64,000 nucleotides of DNA from a virus (taxonomy: Duplodnaviria; Heunggongvirae; Uroviricota; Caudoviricetes). Each line of letters begins with the position of its first letter. Position 1 is the stretch's first letter. A program made the translations under genes and the position numbers. The stretch is taken from positions 1-64,000 of the IMG/VR virus record IMGVR_UViG_2541047850_000005, one strand, 5' to 3'. The notes under the pieces were generated by a model, which was given only the letters and a program-made list of their open reading frames with translations, made no database searches and was not told the origin of the DNA. Of this stretch, positions 9,876 through 61,428 are shown piece after piece.

Positions 9876-11909
9876 TTACTTAACCTGGTGACCAGGTTTA
9901 GCACCAGCATCCGGGCTTAACAGGAAGATATCTTTCCCACCAGGACCAGCAGCCATCACCATGCCTTCTGAGATACCGAAACGCATTTTACGCGGAGCCA
10001 GGTTAGCCACCATAATGGTGTGACGACCAATCAGTGCCTGTGGGTCTGGATAAGCAGAACGAATGCCGGAGAAGACATTACGCTTTTCCCCACCGAGATC
10101 CAGTGTCAGACGCAGCAGTTTGTCAGAGCCTTCAACAAACTCCGCGTTTTCAATCAGCGCCACACGCAGGTCAACTTTGGCGAAGTCGTCAAAGGTGATG
10201 GTTTCCTGAATCGGGTCGTCAGCCAGTGGGCCAGTTACCGGTGCGGCTGTGGCTTTCACTTCTTCTTTGGATGCTTCCACCAGTGCTTCCACCTGTTTCA
10301 TATCGATGCGGTTATACAGCGCCTTGAACGGATTCACTTTGTGGCCCAGCAGCGGTTGCTGGATACCATCCCAGGTCAGTTCTGTATTGAGGAATGCTTC
10401 TGCGCGCTCGGTCAGTTTCGGCAGTACCGGTTTCAGGTAAGTCATCAGCACGCGGAACAGGTTAATGCCCATAGAGCAAATCGCCTGCAGATCGGCATCG
10501 CGACCTTCCTGCTTCGCCACCACCCACGGAGCCTGTTCATCGACATAGCGGTTAGCCAGGTCAGCCAGTGCCATGATTTCACGGATAGCTTTACCAAATT
10601 CGCGGCTTTCCCATGCTTCGCCAATCACTTCAGCGGCATCAGTAAAGGTTTTGTACAGTTGCGGGTCAGCCAGTTCGCTTGCCAGCACGCCGTCAAAACG
10701 CTTGTTGATAAAGCCTGCATTACGGGAGGCCAGGTTAACCACTTTGTTCACGATATCGGCATTCACTCGCTGAACGAAATCTTCCAGGTTGAGATCGATA
10801 TCATCAATGCGCGAAGAGAGTTTCGCAGTGTAGTAGTAACGCAGGCTGTCGGCGTCAAAATGATTCAGCCAGGTGCTGGCTTTAATGAACGTGCCGCGAG
10901 ACTTGGACATCTTCGCACCGTTCACCGTCACATAGCCATGAACAAACAGGTTGGTCGGCTTGCGGAAGTTGCTGCCTTCCAGCATGGCAGGCCAGAACAG
11001 GCTGTGGAAGTAAACGATATCTTTACCGATGAAGTGGTACAGCTCGGCGGTGGAGTCTTTCTTCCAGTATTCATCGAAGCTGGAGGTGTCGCCGCGTTTG
11101 TCGCACAGATTCTTGAAGGAACCCATGTAGCCAATCGGCGCGTCCAGCCAGACGTAGAAATATTTGCCCGGCGCGTTCGGAATTTCAAAACCGAAATAAG
11201 GGGCGTCGCGGGAGATATCCCACTGTTGCAGGCCAGATTCAAACCACTCCTGCATTTTATTTGCCACCTGCTCCTGCAACGCACCGCTGCGGGTCCATGC
11301 CTGCAGCATTTCGCTGAAAGAAGGCAGATCAAAGAAGAAGTGTTCGGAATCACGCATTACCGGCGTAGCACCAGAAACTACCGATTTCGGCTCGATCAGT
11401 TCAGTCGGGCTGTAAGTCGCGCCGCAGACTTCACAGTTATCGCCGTATTGATCTGGCGCTTTACATTTAGGGCAGGTGCCTTTTACAAAACGGTCCGGCA
11501 GGAACATGCCTTTTTCCGGGTCGTATAACTGAGAGATGGTGCGGTTTTTAATAAAACCGTTCTCTTTCAGGCGAGTATAAATAAGCTCGGACAACTGACG
11601 GTTCTCTTCGCTGTGCGTCGAGTGATAGTTGTCATAGCTGATGTTAAAGCCTGCAAAATCAGTCTGGTGTTCCTGACTCATTTCGCCAATCATCTGTTCC
11701 GGTGTGATACCAAGCTGCTGTGCTTTCAGCATGATCGGTGTGCCGTGGGCATCGTCGGCACAGATGAAATTAACCTCGTGGCCGCGCATTCGCTGGTAAC
11801 GAACCCAGACATCAGCCTGGATGTGCTCCAGCATATGGCCGAGGTGGATTGAGCCGTTAGCGTACGGCAGCGCGCACGTCACCAGAATTTTCTTCGCGAC
11901 TTGGGTCAT
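9876..11909 (-). CDS. metG: methionine--tRNA ligase
   Basis: 677-aa product starting [26 protein letters not shown] (HIGH motif), KMSKS motif, C-terminal tRNA-binding domain; track ORF extends upstream of the true ATG. Confidence 0.95.
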
Positions 11910-12066
11910 AGTAGGCATTACTTCTTTGTAGTGAAAAGGGGCTTGATAGTAACAAAATGGCCTTATGTCTGCCATGTGATAACAGCATTTCTCATAAATG
12001 ATTAAATGCCGTAGCTGGAGTACACTACAAGGCGACAATTGCGCAAATTAAAATAAAGGAGACGGG

Positions 12067-13167
12067 ATGAGCGAGTCCAAATCGCCGGATGCCCTGAGAG
12101 CAATGGTAGCCGGTACGCTGGCTAATTTTCAGCACCCAACCCTGAAACACAACCTGACTACGCTTAAAGCGTTACACCATGTTGCGTTGATGGATGACAC
12201 ACTGCATGTCGAACTAATCATGCCTTTCGTGTGGAATAAGCCTTTTGAAGACCTGAAAGAGCAATGTAGTGGTGATCTGCTCCGTATCACTGGCGCAAAG
12301 GCTATCGACTGGAAGCTGTCGTACAACATTGCCACGCTTAAGCGCGTCAAAAACCAACCAGGCATTAATGGCGTTAAGAACATTATCGCCGTCAGCTCAG
12401 GCAAGGGCGGCGTTGGTAAATCCTCCACGGCGGTAAACCTGGCACTGGCGTTGGCTGCTGAAGGTGCGAAAGTTGGTATTTTGGATGCCGATATCTACGG
12501 GCCATCAATTCCAACCATGCTTGGCGCGGAAAACCAACGTCCAACCTCACCGGACGGTACTCACATGGCACCGATTATGTCTCATGGACTGGCAACCAAT
12601 TCAATTGGTTATCTGGTAACTGACGACAATGCGATGGTGTGGCGTGGTCCGATGGCGAGCAAGGCGTTAATGCAGATGTTGCAGGAAACTCTATGGCCTG
12701 ATCTGGACTATCTCGTTCTCGATATGCCGCCGGGTACTGGTGATATTCAGCTGACGCTGGCGCAGAACATTCCTGTAACTGGTGCTGTTGTGGTAACTAC
12801 GCCGCAAGATATCGCGCTGATCGATGCGAAGAAAGGCATTGTGATGTTCGAAAAAGTCGAAGTGCCGGTACTGGGTATCGTCGAAAACATGAGTGTGCAT
12901 ATTTGCAGTAACTGCGGTCATCACGAGCCAATTTTTGGCACCGGTGGCGCACAGAAACTGGCCGAGAAATACAACACGCAGTTGTTAGGCCAAATGCCAC
13001 TTCATATCTCTCTTCGTGAAGATCTGGATAACGGAACACCAACCGTTATTAGTCGTCCAGATAGCGAATTTACGGCTATTTATCGTGACCTTGCAGATCG
13101 CGTTGCTGCCCAAATGTATTGGCAAGGTGAAGTAATACCTGGCGAAATCGCATTCCGCGCAGTGTGA
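12067..13167 (+). CDS. apbC: Fe-S cluster carrier ATPase ApbC/Mrp
   Basis: P-loop SSGKGGVGKSSTAVNLA, CxxC motif (HICSNCGH), divergent from metG as in enterobacteria. Confidence 0.9.
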   Translation: MSESKSPDALRAMVAGTLANFQHPTLKHNLTTLKALHHVALMDDTLHVELIMPFVWNKPFEDLKEQCSGDLLRITGAKAIDWKLSYNIATLKRVKNQPGINGVKNIIAVSSGKGGVGKSSTAVNLALALAAEGAKVGILDADIYGPSIPTMLGAENQRPTSPDGTHMAPIMSHGLATNSIGYLVTDDNAMVWRGPMASKALMQMLQETLWPDLDYLVLDMPPGTGDIQLTLAQNIPVTGAVVVTTPQDIALIDAKKGIVMFEKVEVPVLGIVENMSVHICSNCGHHEPIFGTGGAQKLAEKYNTQLLGQMPLHISLREDLDNGTPTVISRPDSEFTAIYRDLADRVAAQMYWQGEVIPGEIAFRAV

Positions 13168-13204: not shown

Positions 13205-13594
13205 CTACATCACAGGACAATCATCAAACTCGCCACTTCTTGCGTCGTTGATAATGTGAGTGATCACACCAAACACGGCATTGCTGCCCGTGCATCCATC
13301 ATCATCCTTTGGCAATGCTTCCTTCTTACCAGTTCTTAAATCCTCCAGATGCTGACGTGGATACTTCCGGTATCTTTTTACGCGATATTCCCCATCCAGA
13401 GCACATACAAGAAGAGATCCATCAACAGGAGTGAGTGAGGAATCGACCACCAGCAATGCACCCTGCAATATTCCCTCACGATGATGGCTATCAGCTGCCC
13501 TCAAGAAGTAGGTCGCTGAAGGATGTCTAATTATCTGCTGATCAAGAGAAATACGGCTCTCAGCATAATCCGCCGCAGGAGAGGGGTACCCCAT
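13205..13594 (-). CDS. umuD: UmuD-like S24 peptidase (translesion-synthesis accessory, HumD/UmuD' type)
   Basis: 129 aa; alignment-by-eye to UmuD (..HPSATYF..A.DS....GI..G.LL.VD.....G.......DGE..VK..); Ser and Lys of the S24 dyad present; LexA box upstream; no umuC adjacent. Confidence 0.75.
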   Translation of the reverse strand: MGYPSPAADYAESRISLDQQIIRHPSATYFLRAADSHHREGILQGALLVVDSSLTPVDGSLLVCALDGEYRVKRYRKYPRQHLEDLRTGKKEALPKDDDGCTGSNAVFGVITHIINDARSGEFDDCPVM

Positions 13595-26556: not shown

Positions 26557-27150
26557 CTAAGCAGCCTTCTTTGATGCTCTTTTTTTTCTGACCACATTCG
26601 CAGGATCATACCCTCCCAGACTTTTCATGACGTCCAAAGGGATCTTGCTTATAGAGTGCCCAGCGTCCTGACAGAATCCTCGAAAAACAACGAGCATACT
26701 GCCACCGGGGTTGATGTTTACTTCTACCTGACCCAAATTGACGTCAGGCTCGACAAACGCTACGCGGCCACCAGACAGAATAATCGTCTCATTCGCATAC
26801 TCTGTTGCACGCTCATACCACTTTGTATCGAGGGATTGAGGAATTAGCATCACTGTTGTAACTCCGCGAGCCTGCTCACGTATAGCCGCATCAATCCAGG
26901 GGGAGATTTTGGAGTAGGGTGGATTGAGGAAGGCAATTGTACCTGGCTGCCCCCATTCAGATTTCAAAGCATCGCGCTCAACGCCTATGAAAATAGGCAG
27001 CTTTGCATTGTCCTTGTTGCAGGCAACGTCAACATCAAATGTCACTCCAAGATAACGTTGAATGGCAGAAAACAGCCAATCAGGTGTTCTCCAGAGATCA
27101 CGAAGAGAGTTGTCGCGCTTTCGCTGTTTGATTTTTTCGGCTGCAATCAT
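26557..27150 (-). CDS. phage-type DNA N6-adenine methyltransferase (Dam-like)
   Basis: ..IAFLNPPYSKISPWI.. (NPPY catalytic motif) in a ~200-aa protein, typical of small phage Dam enzymes. Confidence 0.8.
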   Translation of the reverse strand: MIAAEKIKQRKRDNSLRDLWRTPDWLFSAIQRYLGVTFDVDVACNKDNAKLPIFIGVERDALKSEWGQPGTIAFLNPPYSKISPWIDAAIREQARGVTTVMLIPQSLDTKWYERATEYANETIILSGGRVAFVEPDVNLGQVEVNINPGGSMLVVFRGFCQDAGHSISKIPLDVMKSLGGYDPANVVRKKRASKKAA

Positions 27151-41297: not shown

Positions 41298-41551
41298 GTG
41301 TTTTTCCTTTGTGGTTATTTTGATACAAATTTTAAGAGCAATGAGAAGGTAAACAACTATGCATAACGGTATGTTAGGAATGAAACGAGCGTCTTAATAT
41401 ACAAAATTTATAAGTAAGTATATACCTATTTGTTGTGACGCAACTTTGCTTGTCTGTATGACTAAAAATAAGACAGGATCACTGTAGAACGCTATGAGAG
41501 CTATTTTGAGGGGGCGTAGATTCTATCTACGCCAATATACGATCTGGAGGG

Positions 41552-42196
41552 TTACAGCGCGTCAGTGGGCTTTTTACGCGCTGCGTTTATGCTTATGACG
41601 CCAGCTTTTGGACGTGGGTCAACAAGGTTAAGCTCTTCTTCACTGTGGTATTCGAGGTCGAACTCACGTTTTACATGTCTGATGTAGATTGCGGTGAGCA
41701 GGCTATCTTTGGTCAGAAAGTGTCCGTAGGATTTGCGGATCACTTCTTTTACCTTCTCGATTTTCTCACCACCCATACAGAGATGATTAAATCGGCTGTG
41801 TTTCCGCAACATTTCGTCTACTGGGCCTGAGTAAACCTTGTCCACTTTCCCAAAACGGATGATTTTCCCTGTGTCTGCGGATACGAGGCAAATCAGCTTG
41901 TCTGGTGATAAACGATCTCGCCACGTCACACCTGAACGGAGTGTGTTGAAGTAGGGGGCATCCAATCCGATGATCGGTTTACGAAATGCGAGCAATGGAA
42001 CGTACCTGATGCAACTGTTTAAATGAAAATTCACACCAGCCTTATCAAGTTTTATTCTGGTTTCGTAGATCGGGCACTTCGCCGCTATACCGCAGATGTC
42101 ACAAAGCAACTTCTGCTTGTTCAGGTTGGAATTTGATTCGATAGTGTAGGAGCCGTCTTCAAGACGACGAACCCAGCGCGTGCGTTTTAGATCCAT
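41552..42196 (-). CDS. hypothetical protein (214 aa)
   Basis: ORF; divergent from repA origin region. Confidence 0.5.
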   Translation of the reverse strand: MDLKRTRWVRRLEDGSYTIESNSNLNKQKLLCDICGIAAKCPIYETRIKLDKAGVNFHLNSCIRYVPLLAFRKPIIGLDAPYFNTLRSGVTWRDRLSPDKLICLVSADTGKIIRFGKVDKVYSGPVDEMLRKHSRFNHLCMGGEKIEKVKEVIRKSYGHFLTKDSLLTAIYIRHVKREFDLEYHSEEELNLVDPRPKAGVISINAARKKPTDAL

Positions 42197-42282
42197 ATGT
42201 CATTTTTCTGTGATTGTTAGCCGAGGCAACGATAACCCACCAGGTGCGCCGAAGGTAGTAAATGCCTGTTTTAATTATTCAC

Positions 42283-42356
42283 ATATCCACAGGATAGATC
42301 CTAATAAAGAGATCCATAGATAGATCCTTGTATAGATCAAATAAGATCCCCGATCG
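42283..42356. promoter_or_regulatory. origin-like element: DnaA-box-like TATCCACA plus cluster of six GATC (Dam) sites
   Basis: ATATCCACA at ~42283..42291; GATC at ~42297, 42311, 42323, 42335, 42345, 42352 within ~60 bp, immediately upstream of iterons. Confidence 0.5.
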
Positions 42357-42395
42357 CTGTAAGCCGCGCCACGACTGGTCTGAAGCCATGTTCAT

Positions 42396-42497
42396 GTATG
42401 CTGTCAGCGGTAATTGATAGTCTGTCAGCGGTTCACCGTATGCTGCCAACTGTTTTTGGTATTCTGTCAGCGGCAAATCAAGTATGCTGTCAGCGGT
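42396..42497. repeat. iteron cluster upstream of repA (about 4 copies of TATGCTGTCAGCGGT-like 15-mer)
   Basis: direct repeats at ~42398, 42421, 42461, 42483. Confidence 0.8.
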
Positions 42498-42517
42498 TGA
42501 ATGACAAAGGTGTCCAC

Positions 42518-43612
42518 ATGTCCACAAAAAATAAAAAAGGTAAAAATAACAAAGAAGTAGAAGATAACATCGACAACTTTGAAGAAGGTTCCCTTGAATT
42601 GTACACAGGGGAACTTGTCCCTAATAGCAACAATACAGTCCAACCAATTGCGTTGATGCGACTGGGGTTGTTCGTCCCCACGCTTAAGGGAACAAAATAC
42701 AGTAAACGTAACAAGCCAAATGAGATCGATGCTTCAAAGGAGCTTGTCCAGCTCGAAGTAGCCCGTTCTGAAGGCTATTCCGATATCAAGATAACCGGTC
42801 CTCGTCTCGACATGGATCATGATTTCAAAACGTGGGTGGGCGTTGTGCGTTCGCTGGCAGAATACGGCGAACCTAATGGTCGTGTCGAGTTAAGCATCAC
42901 GAAATTTGCGAAGTTTTGTGGCTATCCATCGTCACAGATCCGCAAAACACTCCGCGACCGGCTTACAAACAGTCTTTTGAAGATCATGCGTACAACTCTG
43001 TCTTTCCAGAGAACGTATGAAGAAAAGAACGTCGACGGCTCTAACAAGATCTCGCTTCTGATGGTGCACCTCATCAATAGCGTGGACTACAACGAGCAGA
43101 AAGATACGGTGGTGTTCTATGCAGAACCGAAGCTGGCCGAACTATATCGCTTTGACCATAAGGTTCTTTTGCAGTTAAAGGTTATCAATAAGCTACCACG
43201 CAAAGAAACAGCACAGGCTCTGTACACCTTCATCGAAAGTCTTCCAACCAAGCCTGCGCCGGTATCGCTTGCTCGATTGCGTGCGCGACTCAATTTGAGT
43301 AGCAGGAATGTCAGCTCGCAGAATCAGACTATACGTAACGGCTTAAAAGCTCTCCAAGATTTGGGCTATCTCGAATACAGCGAGATTAAGCGTGGGCGGT
43401 CGATCTATATCCAGATTCACAGCCGCAATCCAAAACTCAAAGTCGCACCGCCAAAACCTGAAGACATCGAACCCAAAAAACCAGATGAGAAAGCTGGGGA
43501 AATTGATGCCAAACAGAACATTATCAACAAGATAACCGAACTTTCGCAGAATTTGACGCCTGAAAATATCAAGATGATTGAGATCCTTTCCAATAGTCTC
43601 AAACTGCTTTGA
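42518..43612 (+). CDS. repA: iteron-type plasmid replication initiator (RepA/RepE-like)
   Basis: 364-aa basic protein flanked on both sides by iteron arrays; start set at ATG MSTKNKKGK (track ORF runs through the upstream iterons). Confidence 0.7.
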   Translation: MSTKNKKGKNNKEVEDNIDNFEEGSLELYTGELVPNSNNTVQPIALMRLGLFVPTLKGTKYSKRNKPNEIDASKELVQLEVARSEGYSDIKITGPRLDMDHDFKTWVGVVRSLAEYGEPNGRVELSITKFAKFCGYPSSQIRKTLRDRLTNSLLKIMRTTLSFQRTYEEKNVDGSNKISLLMVHLINSVDYNEQKDTVVFYAEPKLAELYRFDHKVLLQLKVINKLPRKETAQALYTFIESLPTKPAPVSLARLRARLNLSSRNVSSQNQTIRNGLKALQDLGYLEYSEIKRGRSIYIQIHSRNPKLKVAPPKPEDIEPKKPDEKAGEIDAKQNIINKITELSQNLTPENIKMIEILSNSLKLL

Positions 43613-44143
43613 TATGCTGTCAGCGGTGAAATGTATGCTATCAGCGGCTATTTTTCTGAAAAGTATGCTGTGAACGGTTAAAGATATGCTACCAGCGGTA
43701 TAGTGAGATAAACGTATGCTGTGAGCGGTAAATCATCTATCACCACTCAATGCTCTTTTATACCTCCCCAGTGGTTACTAACCTCGAAGAGTGCATTCCA
43801 TATAGGTTTGCGCTCACTAACATTCTATTCCCATTGCGCTGATTACTTGTAGTGAAAGGTATTTATTGCCTGCTGCTCCCTGATAGAACGTATGCTGTCA
43901 GCGGTGTTTTATTGAGGAATTTTTGTTTGGATATGCTATCAGCGGTAATTAATGGCATATGTCAGACCTTCGTATGCTGCCAGCGGTAATTTTGTTCTGG
44001 TTATACCCATACCGGTACACATTATTCATGCAATGTCTTAAGTATGCTGTCAGCGGTAAAAAATCGAGTAAAGTATGCTGTGAGCGGTGAGATAGACTCT
44101 CGATATGCTATCAGCGGCAGTTGATTGTGTATGCTGTCAGCGG
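43613..44143. repeat. iteron array downstream of repA (about 12 copies, incA-like copy-control locus)
   Basis: TATGCT(G/A)(T/C)(C/G)A(G/A)CGG(T/C) repeats at ~43613, 43634, 43663, 43684, 43715, 43891, 43932, 43973, 44043, 44073, 44104, 44129. Confidence 0.85.
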
Positions 44144-44191
44144 TGACGACTATGAAATATGACTGCGGAACGTGCCGCAGTCAGTTTGCAT

Positions 44192-44404
44192 TTAGTGTAT
44201 TTTCTTCAACAGACCCCAAAGTGTTCCGGCTTTTGTAGTCAGTTTTCCTGTTTCTGGATCGTACATACGCCATTCACGCCGCTGGTGGACGATATACCCA
44301 TCTTCACGTTCCAGACGCTCAAGAATGCCAGGCTGCTTGAAACCCTTAGCACGCCAGTATCCGCTTGTTTTCTCGATTTCCAGACCTGCCAGTGTTAATG
44401 CCAT
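44192..44404 (-). CDS. hypothetical basic protein (70 aa)
   Basis: ATG overlapping stop of upstream gene (TAATG). Confidence 0.4.
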   Translation of the reverse strand: MALTLAGLEIEKTSGYWRAKGFKQPGILERLEREDGYIVHQRREWRMYDPETGKLTTKAGTLWGLLKKIH

Positions 44405-44739
44405 TATCCAACCTCCTTGCAGTCATCGAAAAGGTAGCTTTGCTGAGAAGCGTGAACGCCATAGAAGCCCTTGTATTTGTTGTATACGAAGTGGTCTTCT
44501 CCGACGCCGGTTAATTTGCCATTACGGTTTGTGAGATATGGGGATGACAATACTCGATCGTCACGCACAACATAGAACTGGTCGCCGCTGTCTACGACCA
44601 TCGCTCCATATGGTGCTTTTATGACGTCGGTAAGAGCGCCATTCTTAACGTCGGCTACAGACATTTCACACTGATAAACAGTGGTGTCGGTCACAACGAT
44701 CGAGGAAAGGAACAACAGAGCGAATGGGATGGCCTTCAT
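44404..44739 (-). CDS. hypothetical secreted protein (111 aa, signal peptide)
   Basis: N-terminal MKAIPFALLFLSSIVVT hydrophobic signal; AAGAGG RBS. Confidence 0.5.
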   Translation of the reverse strand: MKAIPFALLFLSSIVVTDTTVYQCEMSVADVKNGALTDVIKAPYGAMVVDSGDQFYVVRDDRVLSSPYLTNRNGKLTGVGEDHFVYNKYKGFYGVHASQQSYLFDDCKEVG

Positions 44740-46930: not shown

Positions 46931-49270
46931 TTACTCTTCTACTGACTCGGTGGGGTTGTCTTTTGCTCTTCGGTCGTCGATTGCCTGCAAAGCCGCAATG
47001 ATTTCAGCCAGTGGCTTCTCCCGATACATCTCGACGATCTGCGATTTGGTGTATTTCTTGTCACCAATTTCAACTCGCCCGCTGGCGTTCTTTGGCAGGT
47101 ATCCTTCTTCCAGCATGTACTCGACGAGCGATTCGATAACGTCGAGGCCACGAGTAGGATCGAAGTAGAATTTCCAGGTGCATTTGCCATACGGTGGTGC
47201 AACTTTGTTTTTGATGCATTCTGCGCCTACGTCCTGGCCGATCTTCTCTTTACCATCCTTCATCACCGATGCACCAAGACGGATACGTACAGAAGCGTAG
47301 AACTTCGGTGAATCTCCACCTGGCGACGTAGTAGGGTCGCCAAACATTACACCGATTTTTGTGCGAACCTGATTCAAGAAGATGATGCAGGCGTTGTATT
47401 TGCGTGCCCACAAAGCCAGAGTAGGGAAGTTCGCACTTGTCGCACGAGCCAGTGCCGTATTGTCGTTCATGTTTAGCTGATCTTTGTCTTTGGCAGTGCC
47501 TTCAGCCATCTTTTCGAACTTCTCGGCTTTGGAGTTCGGAACCATAGACGCAAGTGAGTCAGCCACGATACAGATAGGTGCTGATTCAGGAATAAGCTCT
47601 TCATCACGTACCAATTTAAGAATTGTGCCGATCAACTCTACAGAGTCTTCGAAGGTATCAGGCTGCTTGTATACCCACTGACCGTCATCCTCATCTGCGT
47701 TCAGGCCATTGGCTACAGCCAGGCCAACGTCAAAACTGTTTTCATGATCGAGGAATACCGCCAGACCATCTTGTTTTTGAGCGGAGATCATCGCTGCTGT
47801 TGCAAGGAATGTGTTGTGGCTGATAATCCCGTTAGACCAGAAAGAGTGTGTTTCCGGCATCGCTACGTCGAACGTTGGTGCTTCACCTTCCTCAATAGCC
47901 ACGACTTCGTCGTAGAATAAGTTAGAGCCAATTACCGCTGCCAGTTGTGCAAACAGATGCTCGTTAAAACGATTCTTTCTGCCAATGAAGGAGACATAGA
48001 TTTCTCGCAGTTTGTCTATTCCGACACGATCGCCGCGGCCAATAACGTGGTCTACCAGAGCGTAGTCTTCACGGGTGGTCTTGGTGAGCGACTCGTAGAG
48101 TGATTTCACTAAGCCGCTGATGTGCGGAACATAGCCTGAGTAAGTGCGGTCAAAACCAATGTCCCGTTTGGTTGCCACTGATAAACGTGCCGGAGATTCG
48201 AAACCAATCGTTGACAGAAAAAGGTCGTAATTAGAGCCACTGAATGACAGCCGGTAATATGTATTTTCATAACCCGCGACGTGTTTTTCAGAGATAGTTG
48301 ACGTAATCCCCAGATTCAGGAGCATGAGGCGAATTTGCTGTAGCAGCAGCCCACTCGCGCTCACAACCTCAATGCAGCGACCACCATTGACGTGGCATTC
48401 CAGCTCAAAGTAGCCGCGAAGGAATGCAATTTGAGCCTCGCTATTGGCGCGACGCACACTCAACGGAACCTGCTTGCCAGCAGCTTTCTCATACTCCAGA
48501 CCATATTCTTTAAAAAGCAGCGAACGCACCTCTTTGCTAAACAGCACATGGTCTTCCGAGCCGTTATGTTTTCTCGTAACTGGCATCTTGTCTGATACCA
48601 GCGAAATGAGGCGGTAGTACTCATCCTTGATGAATGGATCTGTGTTAGAAAAATGCACAGAATTTTCAGAGGCCACGTATCCGTCAGCAATTAAATAGCC
48701 CATCAGTTTTGCGATATTGGCATCCAAGTGCTGATCGCCGAATTGATGTGTGCCAACCATTGAAGGAATCGTGTCGCCTACACTGATTTTTTCAGCATAC
48801 CGCCAGACGATATTGCCTAAGTCGTCAACCACACGAATTGGGTGACGGAACGTAGCCTCGATGTAACCCCCTGATGCCAGCTTAATGCGCTTGAATTTGC
48901 GACGGTTGTTCCATGTCAGGTGTGAGGTTTTCTCTATCACGCCATTTTCATTGATGAGTCCAACGTTATGCTCTACATCGCGAGTAGTGCATGTTGCTTT
49001 GTGCCCCTCAATCTCAAACAGTTCTTTCACTGTTACCATTCCACGCTCCGTCAGCAGCATGGTGTCTGCGGTAACACATTTCCCCGCACTTGGAGGACCG
49101 AATACTTCGACGATACGACCACATGGGAAACCGCCATCGTAACGACCGGAAATCGCTTTGTTTAACGGAGGAAAGCCTGTGTCAATCCAATGAGTTACTT
49201 TCTGAATTTCGTCGTTGCTACCGATTTTCTTTTTCAGAGCAAGTGCCAGTGCGGATTTTCCTTTTGCCAT
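46931..49270 (-). CDS. recA: RecA-family recombinase interrupted by a 422-aa intein
   Basis: exteins align by eye with E. coli RecA (RIVEVFGPPSAGK|T.., ..IIFLNQVRTKIGVMFGDPTTSPGGDSPKFYASVRIRL..); extein total ~357 aa. Confidence 0.85.
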   Translation of the reverse strand: MAKGKSALALALKKKIGSNDEIQKVTHWIDTGFPPLNKAISGRYDGGFPCGRIVEVFGPPSAGKCVTADTMLLTERGMVTVKELFEIEGHKATCTTRDVEHNVGLINENGVIEKTSHLTWNNRRKFKRIKLASGGYIEATFRHPIRVVDDLGNIVWRYAEKISVGDTIPSMVGTHQFGDQHLDANIAKLMGYLIADGYVASENSVHFSNTDPFIKDEYYRLISLVSDKMPVTRKHNGSEDHVLFSKEVRSLLFKEYGLEYEKAAGKQVPLSVRRANSEAQIAFLRGYFELECHVNGGRCIEVVSASGLLLQQIRLMLLNLGITSTISEKHVAGYENTYYRLSFSGSNYDLFLSTIGFESPARLSVATKRDIGFDRTYSGYVPHISGLVKSLYESLTKTTREDYALVDHVIGRGDRVGIDKLREIYVSFIGRKNRFNEHLFAQLAAVIGSNLFYDEVVAIEEGEAPTFDVAMPETHSFWSNGIISHNTFLATAAMISAQKQDGLAVFLDHENSFDVGLAVANGLNADEDDGQWVYKQPDTFEDSVELIGTILKLVRDEELIPESAPICIVADSLASMVPNSKAEKFEKMAEGTAKDKDQLNMNDNTALARATSANFPTLALWARKYNACIIFLNQVRTKIGVMFGDPTTSPGGDSPKFYASVRIRLGASVMKDGKEKIGQDVGAECIKNKVAPPYGKCTWKFYFDPTRGLDVIESLVEYMLEEGYLPKNASGRVEIGDKKYTKSQIVEMYREKPLAEIIAALQAIDDRRAKDNPTESVEE
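47813..49078 (-). other. intein with LAGLIDADG homing-endonuclease domain inserted in the RecA P-loop (between K64 and T+1)
   Basis: starts with Cys (CVTADTML), ends ..IISHN followed by Thr; LAGLIDADG-like motifs LMGYLIADGYV and AFLRGYFELECH. Confidence 0.75.
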
Positions 49271-59943: not shown

Positions 59944-60330
59944 ATGTCTGACAAAAACATTGAATTTATAGAAAGTCGCTATGCTGCTTTTATCGCAGGG
60001 CTGATTGAATCCTCACCTATGAGTCAGGCCCAAATAGCCAGACTTATTGGTTATAAAAATGCCAACAACCTTTCTTTAATTAAAAGTGGTAAAATTCCTT
60101 TGCCTATCGATAAGGTTCGTCCGCTGGCGTTGGCGCTGGGTATTGAGCCAAGTCGTCTTATGATGATGGTGCTGGAAGAACGCCAACCTGAACTCGCAGC
60201 ATTTTTATACAAAGAAGGCACCGCTCCTCTTAACGAGGACGAAAAACAGGTTCTTGCTGCATATAACGAGCGATTCGGTAAAGAGAAAGGCGCATCACAA
60301 AAGGTTGTTGAGGCCATAAAGTCTCTATGA
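59944..60330 (+). CDS. HTH (XRE/Cro-CI-like) DNA-binding protein
   Basis: ..SQAQIARLIGYKNANNLSLIKSGK.. helix-turn-helix; convergent with and overlapping the integrase 3' end. Confidence 0.65.
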   Translation: MSDKNIEFIESRYAAFIAGLIESSPMSQAQIARLIGYKNANNLSLIKSGKIPLPIDKVRPLALALGIEPSRLMMMVLEERQPELAAFLYKEGTAPLNEDEKQVLAAYNERFGKEKGASQKVVEAIKSL

Positions 60331-61428
60331 AAAATTTAGACGAATAAGCTCTGTTGATAGACGATCTCCCTTGAATTTGTGGTCAATTTCGTCTAAATCC
60401 GGTTGCTCTACGATTGATGCGATGTACGTTGAGAAACTTTCTAAGGCGTCTCGCATCTCGTCCATATAATCGTGCCGGTCGTAGACCCGATCTATCCCCT
60501 CAAGACTGTGGTTCATGATTTTGCGTGATACCTCCTGGCTTATGCCTAATGCTGGGAAGTAACTACGCGCAGTACGACGCAAATCTCGGGGTGTAAATGG
60601 CGCAAGCTCCATCAGTTCTGGTCGTTCCAGAATACGACGTAATGCCTGGGCTATTGCCACTTTAGACATAGGAAGGTCTTTCCCGATTTTTTTATTCGAA
60701 GGCACGAGCCACTGGCTGTCTTTACCGTATTCGAACAACTCTTCAATGCATGTGCGCATTAATGTGCTTAAAGGCAGCGAATGCTCACGTGCTGACTTGT
60801 TTCTCTTGCCTTGATTCCAAACTCCACGCTTAAGATTGAACTCACTTTTTTTAGCCCTCAGTACTTCGTCAGGTCGTCTTGCTGATACAAGACACAGCCT
60901 GGCCGCCCATTTTGTACCAGCGCACACATTGAAGTAGTCCCATATATTCCAGAACACCCATACCTCTGCGTCGGTCAGCTTCCGCTCGCGAGGTGTGGGC
61001 TTTGCGCCACCGGCAACTTTGTTTAGTGACATATCGTTTAACGGTGACACGTCTATCATCCCCTGGAAGGCGCACCAGCTAAGGAACTGCTTCATCAGAG
61101 AGAAAACGCGGCGGCCCATAACAATTTTGCCATCCAGTATTAGTGGGTTGACCAGTTGGTTCACCATGAACCTATTAATGTCACTTACTTTTACATCGGC
61201 AATGTGCGGCAAAACATGTATCAAAATACAATGAACAGCGATCTCTGGCCGACGTCTGGTTATCAGCAGAGATAAGCGAGTGAATAACATGAATGCGTCC
61301 GAGAATTTCATATCATTGCTAACCTGCGAGATCATAACGGCCTGCATTTGAGATGCTCTTTCGAGATACTCAATCGCCTCTTTTGAGGTGTTCTCAGCAG
61401 CGCGTGCTCTGTCAAAGCTATTTTTCAT
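60325..61428 (-). CDS. int: tyrosine recombinase / phage-type integrase
   Basis: C-terminal catalytic region ..FTPRDLRRTARSYF..RKIMNHSLEGIDRVYDRHDYMDE.. (R..H-x-x-R..H/Y pattern of tyrosine recombinases). Confidence 0.8.
   Translation of the reverse strand: MKNSFDRARAAENTSKEAIEYLERASQMQAVMISQVSNDMKFSDAFMLFTRLSLLITRRRPEIAVHCILIHVLPHIADVKVSDINRFMVNQLVNPLILDGKIVMGRRVFSLMKQFLSWCAFQGMIDVSPLNDMSLNKVAGGAKPTPRERKLTDAEVWVFWNIWDYFNVCAGTKWAARLCLVSARRPDEVLRAKKSEFNLKRGVWNQGKRNKSAREHSLPLSTLMRTCIEELFEYGKDSQWLVPSNKKIGKDLPMSKVAIAQALRRILERPELMELAPFTPRDLRRTARSYFPALGISQEVSRKIMNHSLEGIDRVYDRHDYMDEMRDALESFSTYIASIVEQPDLDEIDHKFKGDRLSTELIRLNFS

What the first reader, a model, noticed from the sequence alone, without database searches (positions are those of the whole stretch)
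42283..44143. P1/F-type origin: DnaA-box, six clustered GATC sites, and two iteron arrays bracketing repA
About 4 iterons (TATGCTGTCAGCGGT-like) sit upstream and about 12 downstream of a basic RepA-like initiator, preceded by a TATCCACA DnaA-box-like site and six GATC sites within ~60 bp. This architecture (origin iterons plus a downstream copy-control array, Dam-site cluster) is that of P1 oriR/incA and F ori2/incC. An iteron plasmid replicon inside an integrase-bearing island implies the element can exist as a low-copy plasmid; the island also encodes its own Dam-like methyltransferase.
Basis: partly seen in the sequence, partly recalled or inferred. Interest (0 to 1): 0.6.

Follow-up and report, generated by a model that had tools for sequence, protein, structure and literature searches.

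The report
P1-type plasmid replicon of phage-plasmid

Summary
Window 42275-44144 contains two tandem DnaA boxes and six GATC sites within 59 bp, the only such cluster in the 64 kb. It also contains five phased iterons, a 364-aa basic RepA gene, and 12 more iterons downstream in two blocks of 5 and 7. There are 16 iteron matches against 0.11 expected by chance.

RepA is 43.5% identical to phage P1 RepA (E 2e-64) and passes the Pfam Rep3_N threshold. The origin core aligns base by base with P1 oriR: DnaA boxes, tAGATCC heptamers and a GCCGCGCCACGnCTGG segment. It is therefore a homologue of the P1 replicon, not merely an analogue. The link to F ori2/RepE exists only at superfamily level.

The "integrase-bearing island" reading is wrong. 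The whole window is 99.7-99.9% identical to the circular phage-plasmid PhiR41_1. The region occurs in 120 of 5,426 complete E. coli genomes, always on plasmids and never on a chromosome. It matches plasmids typed IncFIB(H89-PhagePlasmid). A Dam-family methyltransferase is indeed encoded at 26557-27150.

The replicon is already known, and interest is low. Minor variations are an all-direct control array, a 12-versus-9 iteron polymorphism, and no adjacent par operon.

The parts
42275..42291 (+). Two tandem DnaA boxes overlapping by one base: TTATTCACA (exact match to TTWTNCACA) and ATATCCACA (1 mismatch). This is the left edge of the origin.
   Evidence: They align with the annotated DnaA site of P1 oriR (L005 2167-2184).
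42293..42355 (.). AT-rich stretch (34% GC) holding six GATC sites. Five lie in tAGATCC-type heptamers and one in CGATCG. Spacing is 14, 12, 12, 10, 7. Presumed DNA-unwinding element and Dam/SeqA target.
   Evidence: the only cluster in the window, P about 0.001. Searches show the same spacing in pJN2-26, and SSU5 and Cyrano differ only in the first interval (13, 12, 12, 10, 7); the sites align with P1 Dam sites 1-5 annotated.
42356..42396 (.). GC-rich spacer (59% GC) containing GCCGCGCCACGACTGG at 42363-42378. It is conserved with P1, which has GCCGCGCCACGTCTGG.
42397..42497 (+). Five direct origin iterons, core TATGCTGTCAGCGGT, start-to-start 21, 21, 21, 23. The third is degenerate (TATGCTGCCAACTGT), as it is in Klebsiella pJN2-26. 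Equivalent to P1 incC.
   Evidence: Compared with pJN2-26, iteron cores differ at 6 of 75 positions and spacers at 12 of 26 (Fisher p = 6e-5).
42456..42485 (+). Putative repA promoter TTGGTA-18-AAGTAT inside iterons 4-5, the positional counterpart of P1 PrepA (TTGCTA-18-TAGGAT). Inferred, and weak.
   Evidence: Read directly from the sequence against the P1 annotation. The consensus promoter scan found nothing on the + strand.
42509..42526 (+). Two DnaA-box-like 9-mers, GTGTCCACA and ATGTCCACA (2 mismatches each), straddling the repA start codon. pJN2-26 has GTATCCACA here and P1 has CTATCCACA a few bases upstream. Low confidence.
   Evidence: Sequence reading.
42518..43612 (+). repA: 364-aa basic initiator (pI 9.46) of the P1 RepA / RepFIB family. 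It has a C-terminal tail of about 55 aa that P1 RepA lacks.
   Evidence: Rep3_N, E 3.9e-9. (43.5% to P1 RepA, 48% to SSU5/Cyrano, 85-87% to Klebsiella phage-plasmids). (phrog_775, E 5e-133). (alignment and tail). The start at 42518 is supported by the alignment and by assemblies rotated to begin at this ATG.
43613..43729 (+). Proximal control array of five direct iterons (spacing 21, 30, 21, 30). It begins on the base after the repA stop codon, much as P1 incA, whose first iteron starts on the last base of repA.
43730..43890 (.). Spacer without iterons between the two arrays. No function was found, and it is the least conserved segment.
   Evidence: 7 of 14 differences from p09EL50 fall here, 4.35% against under 1% in the iteron arrays and repA. 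(fold z-score -0.07). (no Rfam hit). (only tiny ORFs).
43891..44144 (+). Distal control array of seven direct iterons (spacing 41, 41, 70, 31, 30, 26). Three of them (44043-44129) are missing in phage PhiR41_1.
44160..44183 (.). A 9-bp-stem GC-rich hairpin that scores as terminator-like on both strands. It lies between the last iteron and the convergent cra-like gene (44192-44404, -).
26557..27150 (-). Element-encoded phage-type N6-adenine (Dam family) methyltransferase, 197 aa. A possible accessory to the GATC-dependent origin. Its target sequence was not tested.
   Evidence: PF05869, E 1.5e-37. (TIGR01712, 112.5 bits against a cut-off of 97).

Best explanation
Window 42275-44144 is the plasmid-prophage (lysogenic) replicon of an SSU5-supergroup phage-plasmid, of the replicon type PlasmidFinder calls IncFIB(H89-PhagePlasmid). 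It is an evolutionary homologue of the P1 oriR-repA-incA replicon.

Proposed mechanism, with the steps inferred from P1:
1. RepA monomers, activated by DnaK/DnaJ/GrpE, fill the five iterons, which are phased two helical turns apart.
2. Host DnaA binds the tandem boxes at the outer edge.
3. Together they open the AT-rich tAGATCC heptamer region, and host DnaB and the replisome are loaded.
4. The six GATC sites make firing depend on full Dam methylation. After passage of the fork the hemimethylated origin is sequestered by SeqA, which prevents immediate re-firing.
5. The repA promoter lies inside iterons 4-5, so RepA represses its own synthesis.
6. The 12 downstream iterons hold copy number low by titrating RepA and by RepA-mediated pairing ('handcuffing') with origin iterons.

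Shown here: every sequence part, its non-random occurrence, homology of both the protein and the origin core to P1, selective conservation of iteron cores, and exclusively plasmid location in nature. Inferred: every biochemical step.
For: Iterons: 16 matches against 0.11 expected, all in one orientation and bracketing repA.

GATC and DnaA: a unique GATC cluster and tandem DnaA boxes.

RepA: 43.5% identical to P1 RepA, E 2e-64; Pfam Rep3_N above its cut-off; phrog_775, E 5e-133.

Origin core: it aligns column by column with P1 oriR, whose DnaA site, Dam sites 1-5, incC iterons, PrepA and incA iterons are annotated in NC_005856.

Family-wide conservation: among 76 RepA-family loci analysed, from species across the Enterobacterales, every one has 4-7 GATC within 60 bp upstream and all but one have at least 5. 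All have DnaA-box-like sites, upstream iterons and a downstream array. The iteron sequence changes with RepA lineage.

Selection: iteron cores are conserved against spacers in the comparison with Klebsiella pJN2-26, 6/75 against 12/26, p = 6e-5.

Natural location: the region is found in 143 PLSDB plasmids and in 120 of 5,426 complete E. coli genomes, in 185 places all on plasmids. The window is 99.7-99.9% identical to circular phage PhiR41_1.

Typing: hit H87 is a 110,844-bp plasmid of strain 47258, matching by strain name and length the plasmid p47258-4 that PMC12838234 types IncFIB(H89-PhagePlasmid). The pECOH89 RepA is reported identical to that of p09EL50 (PMC3999498), and p09EL50 is 99.3% identical to the window across this region.

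Copy number: the sister element Cyrano/pLF82 has 5.5 copies per cell by qPCR (PMC9928086).
Against: No experiment on this particular replicon was found in the searchable literature.

No consensus sigma-70 promoter was detected upstream of repA. The proposed promoter rests on positional homology with P1 and matches the consensus poorly.

The control array differs from P1: 12 copies, all direct, in two blocks, against 3 direct plus 6 inverted in P1.

No par operon follows it.

The element encodes much of its own replication machinery, including a Pol III alpha subunit, a proofreading subunit, RNase H and a RecA-like protein. Dependence on host factors could therefore differ from P1.

The specificity of the element's Dam-family enzyme is unknown.
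Confidence: 0.9

Rival explanations
1. This is an integrated genomic island or prophage that carries a dormant plasmid replicon and is normally chromosomal.
For: A tyrosine recombinase is encoded about 17 kb away, at 60325-61428.
Against: The whole window is colinear with the circular 107,998-bp PhiR41_1 at 99.7-99.9% identity, with no chromosomal flanks. None of the 185 places in 5,426 complete E. coli genomes is chromosomal. PMC9600943 states that SSU5-type elements have been found exclusively extrachromosomal. By analogy with P1 Cre, the recombinase is more likely a dimer-resolution enzyme; this is an inference.
Confidence: 0.02
2. The replicon is of the F ori2/RepE (RepFIA) type rather than the P1 type.
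For: The general layout is the same: DnaA boxes, an AT-rich region, origin iterons, a rep gene and control iterons. RepA also matches Pfam Rep3_N, the superfamily that includes RepE.
Against: A sequence search and a profile search of all PDB chains returned no hit at E up to 10; from my own knowledge the PDB holds RepE. By contrast P1 RepA matches at E 2e-64. The origin core is alignable with P1 oriR, including the GATC heptamers. From my own knowledge, those heptamers are not a feature of F ori2.
Confidence: 0.02
3. The downstream arrays, or at least the distal seven-iteron block, do something other than copy control. Candidates are a centromere, a second origin or a replication-fork barrier.
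For: The distal block is separated from the proximal block by a 161-bp spacer and has irregular, wider spacing. All copies are direct, unlike most relatives. SSU5/pLF82-type relatives carry a second origin-core module.
Against: The repeats have the same sequence as the origin iterons, so they must bind the same RepA. No DnaA boxes, GATC cluster or AT-rich element accompany the distal block. Three of the seven copies are dispensable in the viable phage PhiR41_1. The position is equivalent to P1 incA.
Confidence: 0.05
4. The RepA origin is a relic. The element is maintained and replicated from another origin by its own replisome genes.
For: The element encodes a Pol III alpha subunit, a proofreading subunit, RNase H, a 5'-3' exonuclease and a RecA-like protein.
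Against: repA and the iteron cores are intact and nearly invariant across more than 100 plasmids: 0 differences in the upstream iterons and 2 in 1,095 bp of repA against p09EL50. MOB-suite assigns a single replicon cluster to p09EL50 (rep_cluster_488). The replicon diverges in step with its iterons between lineages, which signals function.
Confidence: 0.03

Closest known systems
Phage P1 plasmid-prophage replicon (oriR/incC - repA - incA; IncY)
   Same: RepA is 43.5% identical over residues 32-309. The order of parts is the same: tandem DnaA boxes, then five tAGATCC GATC heptamers plus one GATCG, then GCCGCGCCACGnCTGG, then five direct iterons phased at 21 bp, then repA, then a control array at the repA stop codon. 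Both elements also encode their own adenine methyltransferase; for P1 this is from my own knowledge.
   Different: The iteron sequence differs: TATGCTGTCAGCGGT here against ATGTGTGCTGGAGGG in P1. There are 12 control iterons in two blocks, all direct, against 9 in P1 (3 direct, 6 inverted). This RepA has a 31-aa N-terminal and a roughly 55-aa C-terminal extension that P1 RepA lacks. No parAB operon follows the control array. The host element is an SSU5-like siphovirus, not a P1-like myovirus.
IncFIB(H89-PhagePlasmid) replicon of pECOH89 / p09EL50, in phage-plasmids that may correspond to the pSLy3 group (that group assignment was not tested)
   Same: This is essentially the same replicon. It is 99.3% identical over 2 kb to p09EL50. 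The pECOH89 RepA is reported identical to that of p09EL50 (PMC3999498). It is 99.1% identical to the plasmid matched to the typed p47258-4.
   Different: There are only point differences and variation in iteron copy number (12 here, 9 in PhiR41_1). I found no record or searchable paper that annotates the DnaA boxes, GATC cluster or iterons. RefSeq starts repA 40 codons too early, inside iteron 1.
Klebsiella 'IncpKPHS1' / pKpn-group phage-plasmid replicon (pKPHS1, pJN2-26)
   Same: RepA is 85-87% identical, the iteron core is the same, there are five upstream iterons and all downstream iterons are direct. PMC6735626 reports four iterons downstream of repA and an iteron-regulated replicon.
   Different: The Klebsiella elements have 8 downstream iterons (4 + 4) against 12 here. 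The spacers are diverged.
SSU5 / pHCM2 / pLF82 (Cyrano) / pMT1-type replicon
   Same: It belongs to the same RepA family (48% identity) and has the same origin-core sequence. Cyrano shares about 95% backbone identity with the window.
   Different: The iteron differs (AACCACTGTAGAGAG). There are two DnaA-GATC-iteron modules upstream of repA, and the downstream iterons are mostly inverted. It is presumably a different incompatibility type, typed IncFIB(pLF82-PhagePlasmid) in PMC12838234.
RepFIB replicons of IncF and Klebsiella IncFIB plasmids
   Same: RepA is about 50% identical, and more than 5,000 PLSDB plasmids match. From my own knowledge, RepFIB also has repA flanked by iteron arrays.
   Different: These are conjugative or large plasmids rather than phages. 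Their iteron sequences were not compared here.

Membership tests
P1 oriR-RepA-incA replicon family | Initiator homologous to P1 RepA | tested here: met
   tblastn gives 43.5% identity over residues 32-309, E 2e-64. The alignment has 105 invariant columns across five RepAs. phrog_775 matches at E 5e-133.
P1 oriR-RepA-incA replicon family | Five direct iterons about two helical turns apart, immediately upstream of repA | tested here: met
   Five copies with spacing 21, 21, 21, 23. P1 has five with spacing 21, 21, 21, 22.
P1 oriR-RepA-incA replicon family | Tandem DnaA boxes at the outer end of the origin | tested here: met
   TTATTCACA and ATATCCACA at 42275-42291, aligned with the annotated P1 DnaA site.
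P1 oriR-RepA-incA replicon family | Cluster of GATC-bearing heptamers followed by a GC-rich segment, between the DnaA boxes and the iterons | tested here: met
   Six GATC in 59 bp, with the tAGATCC consensus and GCCGCGCCACGACTGG. These align column by column with P1.
P1 oriR-RepA-incA replicon family | Downstream iteron array (incA) starting at the end of repA | tested here: met
   Twelve iterons, starting on the base after the stop codon. Number and orientation differ from P1.
P1 oriR-RepA-incA replicon family | repA promoter embedded in the origin iterons (autorepression) | tested here: inconclusive
   There is no consensus promoter on the + strand. TTGGTA-18-AAGTAT at 42456-42485 is the positional counterpart of P1 PrepA.
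P1 oriR-RepA-incA replicon family | parA-parB-parS operon directly downstream of incA | tested here: not met
   The downstream neighbours are convergent small genes, phrog_804 (cra-like) and phrog_2077. This is a feature of P1 gene order, not of the replicon mechanism.
P1 oriR-RepA-incA replicon family | Dependence on Dam methylation, DnaA and DnaK/DnaJ/GrpE; sequestration by SeqA; handcuffing | not testable with these tools
   These need genetics and biochemistry. They are inferred from conservation of the binding sites.
Rep_3 (PF01051) winged-helix iteron initiators (F RepE, R6K pi, pPS10 RepA) | Match to the Pfam Rep3_N (WH1) model above the gathering score | tested here: met
   37.5 bits against a cut-off of 22.4, E 3.9e-9, residues 118-239.
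Rep_3 (PF01051) winged-helix iteron initiators (F RepE, R6K pi, pPS10 RepA) | Dual winged-helix fold like the solved RepE, pi and RepA structures | tested here: inconclusive
   No PDB hit by sequence or by profile. The single-sequence AlphaFold model is unusable, with mean pLDDT 40.4.
F ori2/incC (RepFIA) | Initiator orthologous to RepE | tested here: not met
   No match to any PDB chain at E up to 10; from my own knowledge the PDB holds RepE. The resemblance is architectural only.
IncFIB(H89-PhagePlasmid) replicon / SSU5-supergroup phage-plasmid | Near-identity to the replicon of plasmids so typed, on a circular phage-like plasmid of about 110 kb | tested here: met
   99.1-99.3% identical to p09EL50 and to the 110,844-bp plasmid of strain 47258, linked to the typing in PMC12838234 and to the RepA statement in PMC3999498. 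The window is 99.7-99.9% identical to PhiR41_1.
Chromosomal integrative island or prophage | Chromosomal location with flanking host genes or att sites | tested here: not met
   Zero of 185 places are chromosomal. The window is colinear with a circular phage-plasmid across the record origin.

The most novel reading that the evidence does not exclude
The control locus of this lineage may be a tunable or switchable copy-number device rather than a fixed P1-like incA. It has 12 all-direct iterons in two blocks, whereas most relatives have mostly inverted arrays.

Two mechanisms are conceivable. First, recombination between identical direct iterons yields variants, as in the 12-to-9 change seen in PhiR41_1, with different copy number and hence different gene dosage of cargo such as CTX-M-15. 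Second, the element's own Dam-family methylase, if switched on at induction, could remethylate the six origin GATCs quickly. That would override SeqA sequestration, so the same oriR would also drive early lytic amplification.
Probability: 0.1. Interest if true: 0.35.

Novelty: already known. Interest (0 to 1): 0.12.

Why it matters
The finding matters mainly for annotation. It identifies the window as an extrachromosomal SSU5-like phage-plasmid rather than an island, a class of element that spreads CTX-M-15 in E. coli.

It also gives a base-level map of an origin that public records leave unannotated or mislabel. RefSeq starts repA inside iteron 1, and one GenBank record labels two iterons attL and attR.

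Finally, it shows that closely related backbones carry two non-cross-reacting RepA/iteron sets, which is the likely basis for their compatibility. It raises no new principle of replication control.

Tried and rejected
Structure and sequence searches:
- A single-sequence AlphaFold2 model of RepA had mean pLDDT 40.4 and was unusable, so no fold search was run.
- PDB searches with the protein and with a 5-member profile found nothing.
- NCBIfam gave no hit for RepA.

The region itself:
- Rfam found no RNA family in 41500-44600.
- The consensus promoter scan found no + strand promoter upstream of repA.
- The 161-bp spacer between the arrays has no significant fold (z = -0.07) and no credible ORF.

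Literature and records:
- The P1 genome paper (PMC523184), Gilcrease & Casjens 2018 (PMC5800970) and a 2026 preprint on phage-plasmid heteroresistance are not held.
- A search for a pMT1 or pHCM2 origin description found nothing relevant.
- The F plasmid record AP001918 is not in the plasmid collection, so F RepFIA and RepFIB were not compared directly.

Scripts:
- One script failed on a wrong file name.

Readings considered and rejected: an att-site or CRISPR-like reading of the repeats, a centromere role for the downstream arrays, and an integrated-island reading.
Full report

Yes. The 15-nt core TATGCTGTCAGCGGT occurs 16 times at up to 2 mismatches, against 0.11 expected in dinucleotide-preserving shuffles. 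Every copy lies on the + strand between 42397 and 44144. A 17th copy with 3 mismatches sits in register at 42439.

- Five copies precede the gene, at 42397, 42418, 42439, 42460 and 42483, with spacing 21, 21, 21, 23.
- Twelve copies follow it, in a proximal block of five (43613-43729) and a distal block of seven (43891-44144). A 161-bp stretch without iterons separates the blocks.

Six GATC sites lie at 42297-42355. This is the only place in the 64 kb with four or more GATC in 60 bp; P is about 0.001 under uniform placement.

It is preceded by an exact box, TTATTCACA at 42275, that overlaps it by one base.

The gene at 42518-43612 encodes a 364-aa protein with pI 9.46.

**2. What is the window?**

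It is not a chromosomal island.

- Window 1-25000 and 39983-64000 match the circular 107,998-bp Escherichia phage PhiR41_1 at 99.7-99.9% identity. The match runs colinearly across the start of that record.
- The 2-kb region is present in 143 PLSDB plasmids. Most are non-mobilizable E. coli or Shigella plasmids of about 108-112 kb. One is p09EL50 of E. coli O104:H4, which MOB-suite assigns to rep_cluster_488.
- The region is present in 120 of 5,426 complete E. coli genomes. All 185 places are on plasmids and none is on a chromosome.
- One of those records is the 110,844-bp plasmid of strain 47258. By strain name and length it matches the plasmid p47258-4 that PMC12838234 types as IncFIB(H89-PhagePlasmid).
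- The pECOH89 announcement states that its RepA is identical to that of p09EL50 and 48% identical to that of pLF82 (PMC3999498).
- SSU5-type phage-plasmids are reported to be exclusively extrachromosomal (PMC9600943).
- The sister element Cyrano/pLF82 has 5.5 copies per cell (PMC9928086).

**3. What is the protein?**

- RepA passes the Pfam gathering score for Rep3_N, at 37.5 against 22.4 bits.
- It matches phrog_775 at E 5e-133.
- By tblastn it is 43.5% identical to P1 and P7 RepA over residues 32-309, E 2e-64.
- It is 48% identical to SSU5 and Cyrano RepA, and 85-87% identical to the RepA of Klebsiella phage-plasmids.
- More than 5,000 PLSDB plasmids encode a relative at about 50% identity, some annotated as RepFIB. 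This is one of the commonest initiator families of the Enterobacteriaceae.

The alignment with P1 and SSU5 RepA supports the start at ATG 42518. So does the fact that many assemblies are rotated to begin at that ATG. The 404-aa RefSeq model begins inside iteron 1.

This RepA has a C-terminal tail of about 55 aa. Such a tail is present in 41 of 42 family members examined, and P1 RepA is the exception.

No solved structure is detectable by sequence. A single-sequence AlphaFold model was unusable.

**4. Is the origin homologous to P1 oriR?**

Yes. The RefSeq P1 record annotates oriR in detail: a DnaA site, Dam sites 1-5, five incC iterons, PrepA within them, repA, and nine incA iterons, the first of which starts on the last base of repA.

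Set side by side, the window and P1 share the same string of elements:
- TTATyCAC(A)TTATCCAC;
- GGATAGATCC, followed by further tAGATCC heptamers and a final GATCG;
- GCCGCGCCACGnCTGG;
- five iterons at 21-bp phasing;
- then repA.

The GATC spacing in the window is 14, 12, 12, 10, 7. It is identical in Klebsiella pJN2-26 and differs only in the first interval (13) in SSU5 and Cyrano.

Only the iterons differ. P1 has ATGTGTGCTGGAGGG, SSU5 and Cyrano have AACCACTGTAGAGAG, and the window and Klebsiella have TATGCTGTCAGCGGT. Change of the iteron together with RepA lineage, on an otherwise conserved origin core, is what a functional initiator/site pair predicts.

Between the window and pJN2-26, iteron cores differ at 6 of 75 positions and inter-iteron spacers at 12 of 26 (p = 6e-5). 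Against p09EL50, half of all differences (7 of 14) fall in the 161-bp spacer between the arrays.

**5. How general is the architecture?**

A scan of one genome per species returned 242 confirmed relatives, of which 80 loci were kept. I analysed 76 of those, plus the window and the four reference loci. Every analysed locus has 4-7 GATC within 60 bp upstream of repA, and all but one have at least 5. All have DnaA-box-like sites, upstream iterons and a downstream array. At least six iteron classes appear.

In most loci the downstream array is mainly inverted relative to the origin iterons; P1 has 3 direct and 6 inverted. The window and its Klebsiella relatives stand out in having all copies direct.

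SSU5, Cyrano and Y. pestis pMT1-type loci carry two DnaA-GATC-iteron modules upstream of repA. The window has the compact single module seen in P1.

**6. Mechanism**

By homology with P1 (established knowledge of that system; steps inferred here):
1. RepA monomers occupy the five origin iterons.
2. DnaA binds the tandem boxes, and the AT-rich heptamer region melts.
3. Full Dam methylation of the GATC sites is needed for firing. Hemimethylated DNA is sequestered by SeqA.
4. RepA represses its own promoter inside the iterons.
5. The downstream iterons limit copy number by titration and by origin pairing (handcuffing).

The candidate promoter is TTGGTA-18-AAGTAT at 42456-42485. It occupies the position of P1 PrepA but matches the consensus poorly, and the scan did not report it.

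Its target sequence is untested.

By analogy with P1 Cre, the tyrosine recombinase at 60325-61428 is more plausibly a multimer-resolution enzyme than an integrase. This is an inference.

**7. Differences from P1**

- There are 12 rather than 9 control iterons, all direct and split into two blocks.
- No parAB operon is adjacent. The neighbours are convergent small genes, one of the family that related records annotate as a P1 Cra or Cre-associated protein.
- RepA is longer at both ends.
- Phage PhiR41_1 lacks exactly 87 bp, equal to three distal iterons. The deletion is bounded by two identical iterons. The array therefore varies by recombination, and nine copies suffice for a viable element.

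**8. Verdict**

The island framing and the F comparison are the parts that fail.

The replicon is already catalogued as a PlasmidFinder type, is annotated as RepB/RepA in more than 100 records, and is a plain homologue of the best-studied iteron replicon. Its fine structure seems not to have been written down for this lineage. That is annotation rather than discovery, so interest is low.

Noticed in passing
window 46931-49270 (-); intein about 47813-49078: The RecA-like gene carries a 422-aa intein with a LAGLIDADG homing endonuclease, inserted in the Walker-A loop (GPPSAGK|C...HN|T). The flanking protein parts are 100% identical to the intein-less 357-aa allele of p09EL50, which points to a recent or active homing event.
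   Followed up: partly
window 42398-42517: RefSeq/PGAP models of this gene start at ATG 42398, inside the first origin iteron, giving 404 aa. Alignment with P1 and SSU5 RepA, and the GenBank PhiR41_1 model, support ATG 42518 and 364 aa.
   Followed up: yes
window 44043-44129 against L002 (PhiR41_1): The otherwise 99.9%-identical phage PhiR41_1 lacks 87 bp, equal to three distal iterons. The deletion is bounded by two identical iterons, so control-iteron number is polymorphic: 12 against 9.
   Followed up: yes
L007 (Cyrano) 1770-2400; L006 (SSU5) 1770-2400; L087 (Y. pestis): Cyrano/pLF82 shares about 95% backbone identity with the window. Its RepA is only 48% identical, its iteron differs (AACCACTGTAGAGAG), and it has two complete DnaA-GATC-iteron modules upstream of repA. 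This looks like a replicon swap between near-identical phage backbones and a duplicated origin.
   Followed up: partly
L008 (Klebsiella phage pJN2-26) 2378-2397 and 3648-3667: The GenBank record labels two 20-bp repeats as attR and attL. They are RepA iterons flanking repA.
   Followed up: yes
window 43445-43609 (RepA residues 310-364): RepA has a C-terminal tail of about 50-60 aa: an acidic, proline-rich linker followed by a conserved amphipathic helix. It is present in 41 of 42 RepA-family members examined and absent from P1 RepA. Its function is unknown.
   Followed up: partly
window 43613-44144 compared with the RepA-family loci L009-L088: All 12 downstream iterons are direct. In nearly all other lineages of the family the downstream array is mostly inverted relative to the origin iterons.
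   Followed up: partly
window 12067-13167 (+) and 13205-13594 (-): One gene encodes an Mrp/NUBPL-type P-loop ATPase (PF10609, E 2e-102, which PHROGs calls 'ParA-like'). The other encodes an S24 peptidase of the kind annotated as UmuD in the related phage record. No canonical parAB was seen next to the replicon, and the real partition genes were not located within the window.
   Followed up: no
window about 9900-12000 and elsewhere (PhiR41_1 annotation, L003/L004): The element carries an unusually rich set of host-like genes: methionyl-tRNA synthetase, NrdAB, ThyA, DHFR, Pol III alpha and epsilon subunits, RNase HI and CobT/CobS-like proteins.
   Followed up: no
window 44192-44404 (-): The 70-aa gene convergent on the iteron array belongs to phrog_804. 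Related records annotate it as a 'P1 Cra' or 'Cre-associated' protein. A bidirectional hairpin at 44160-44183 separates it from the last iteron.
   Followed up: no
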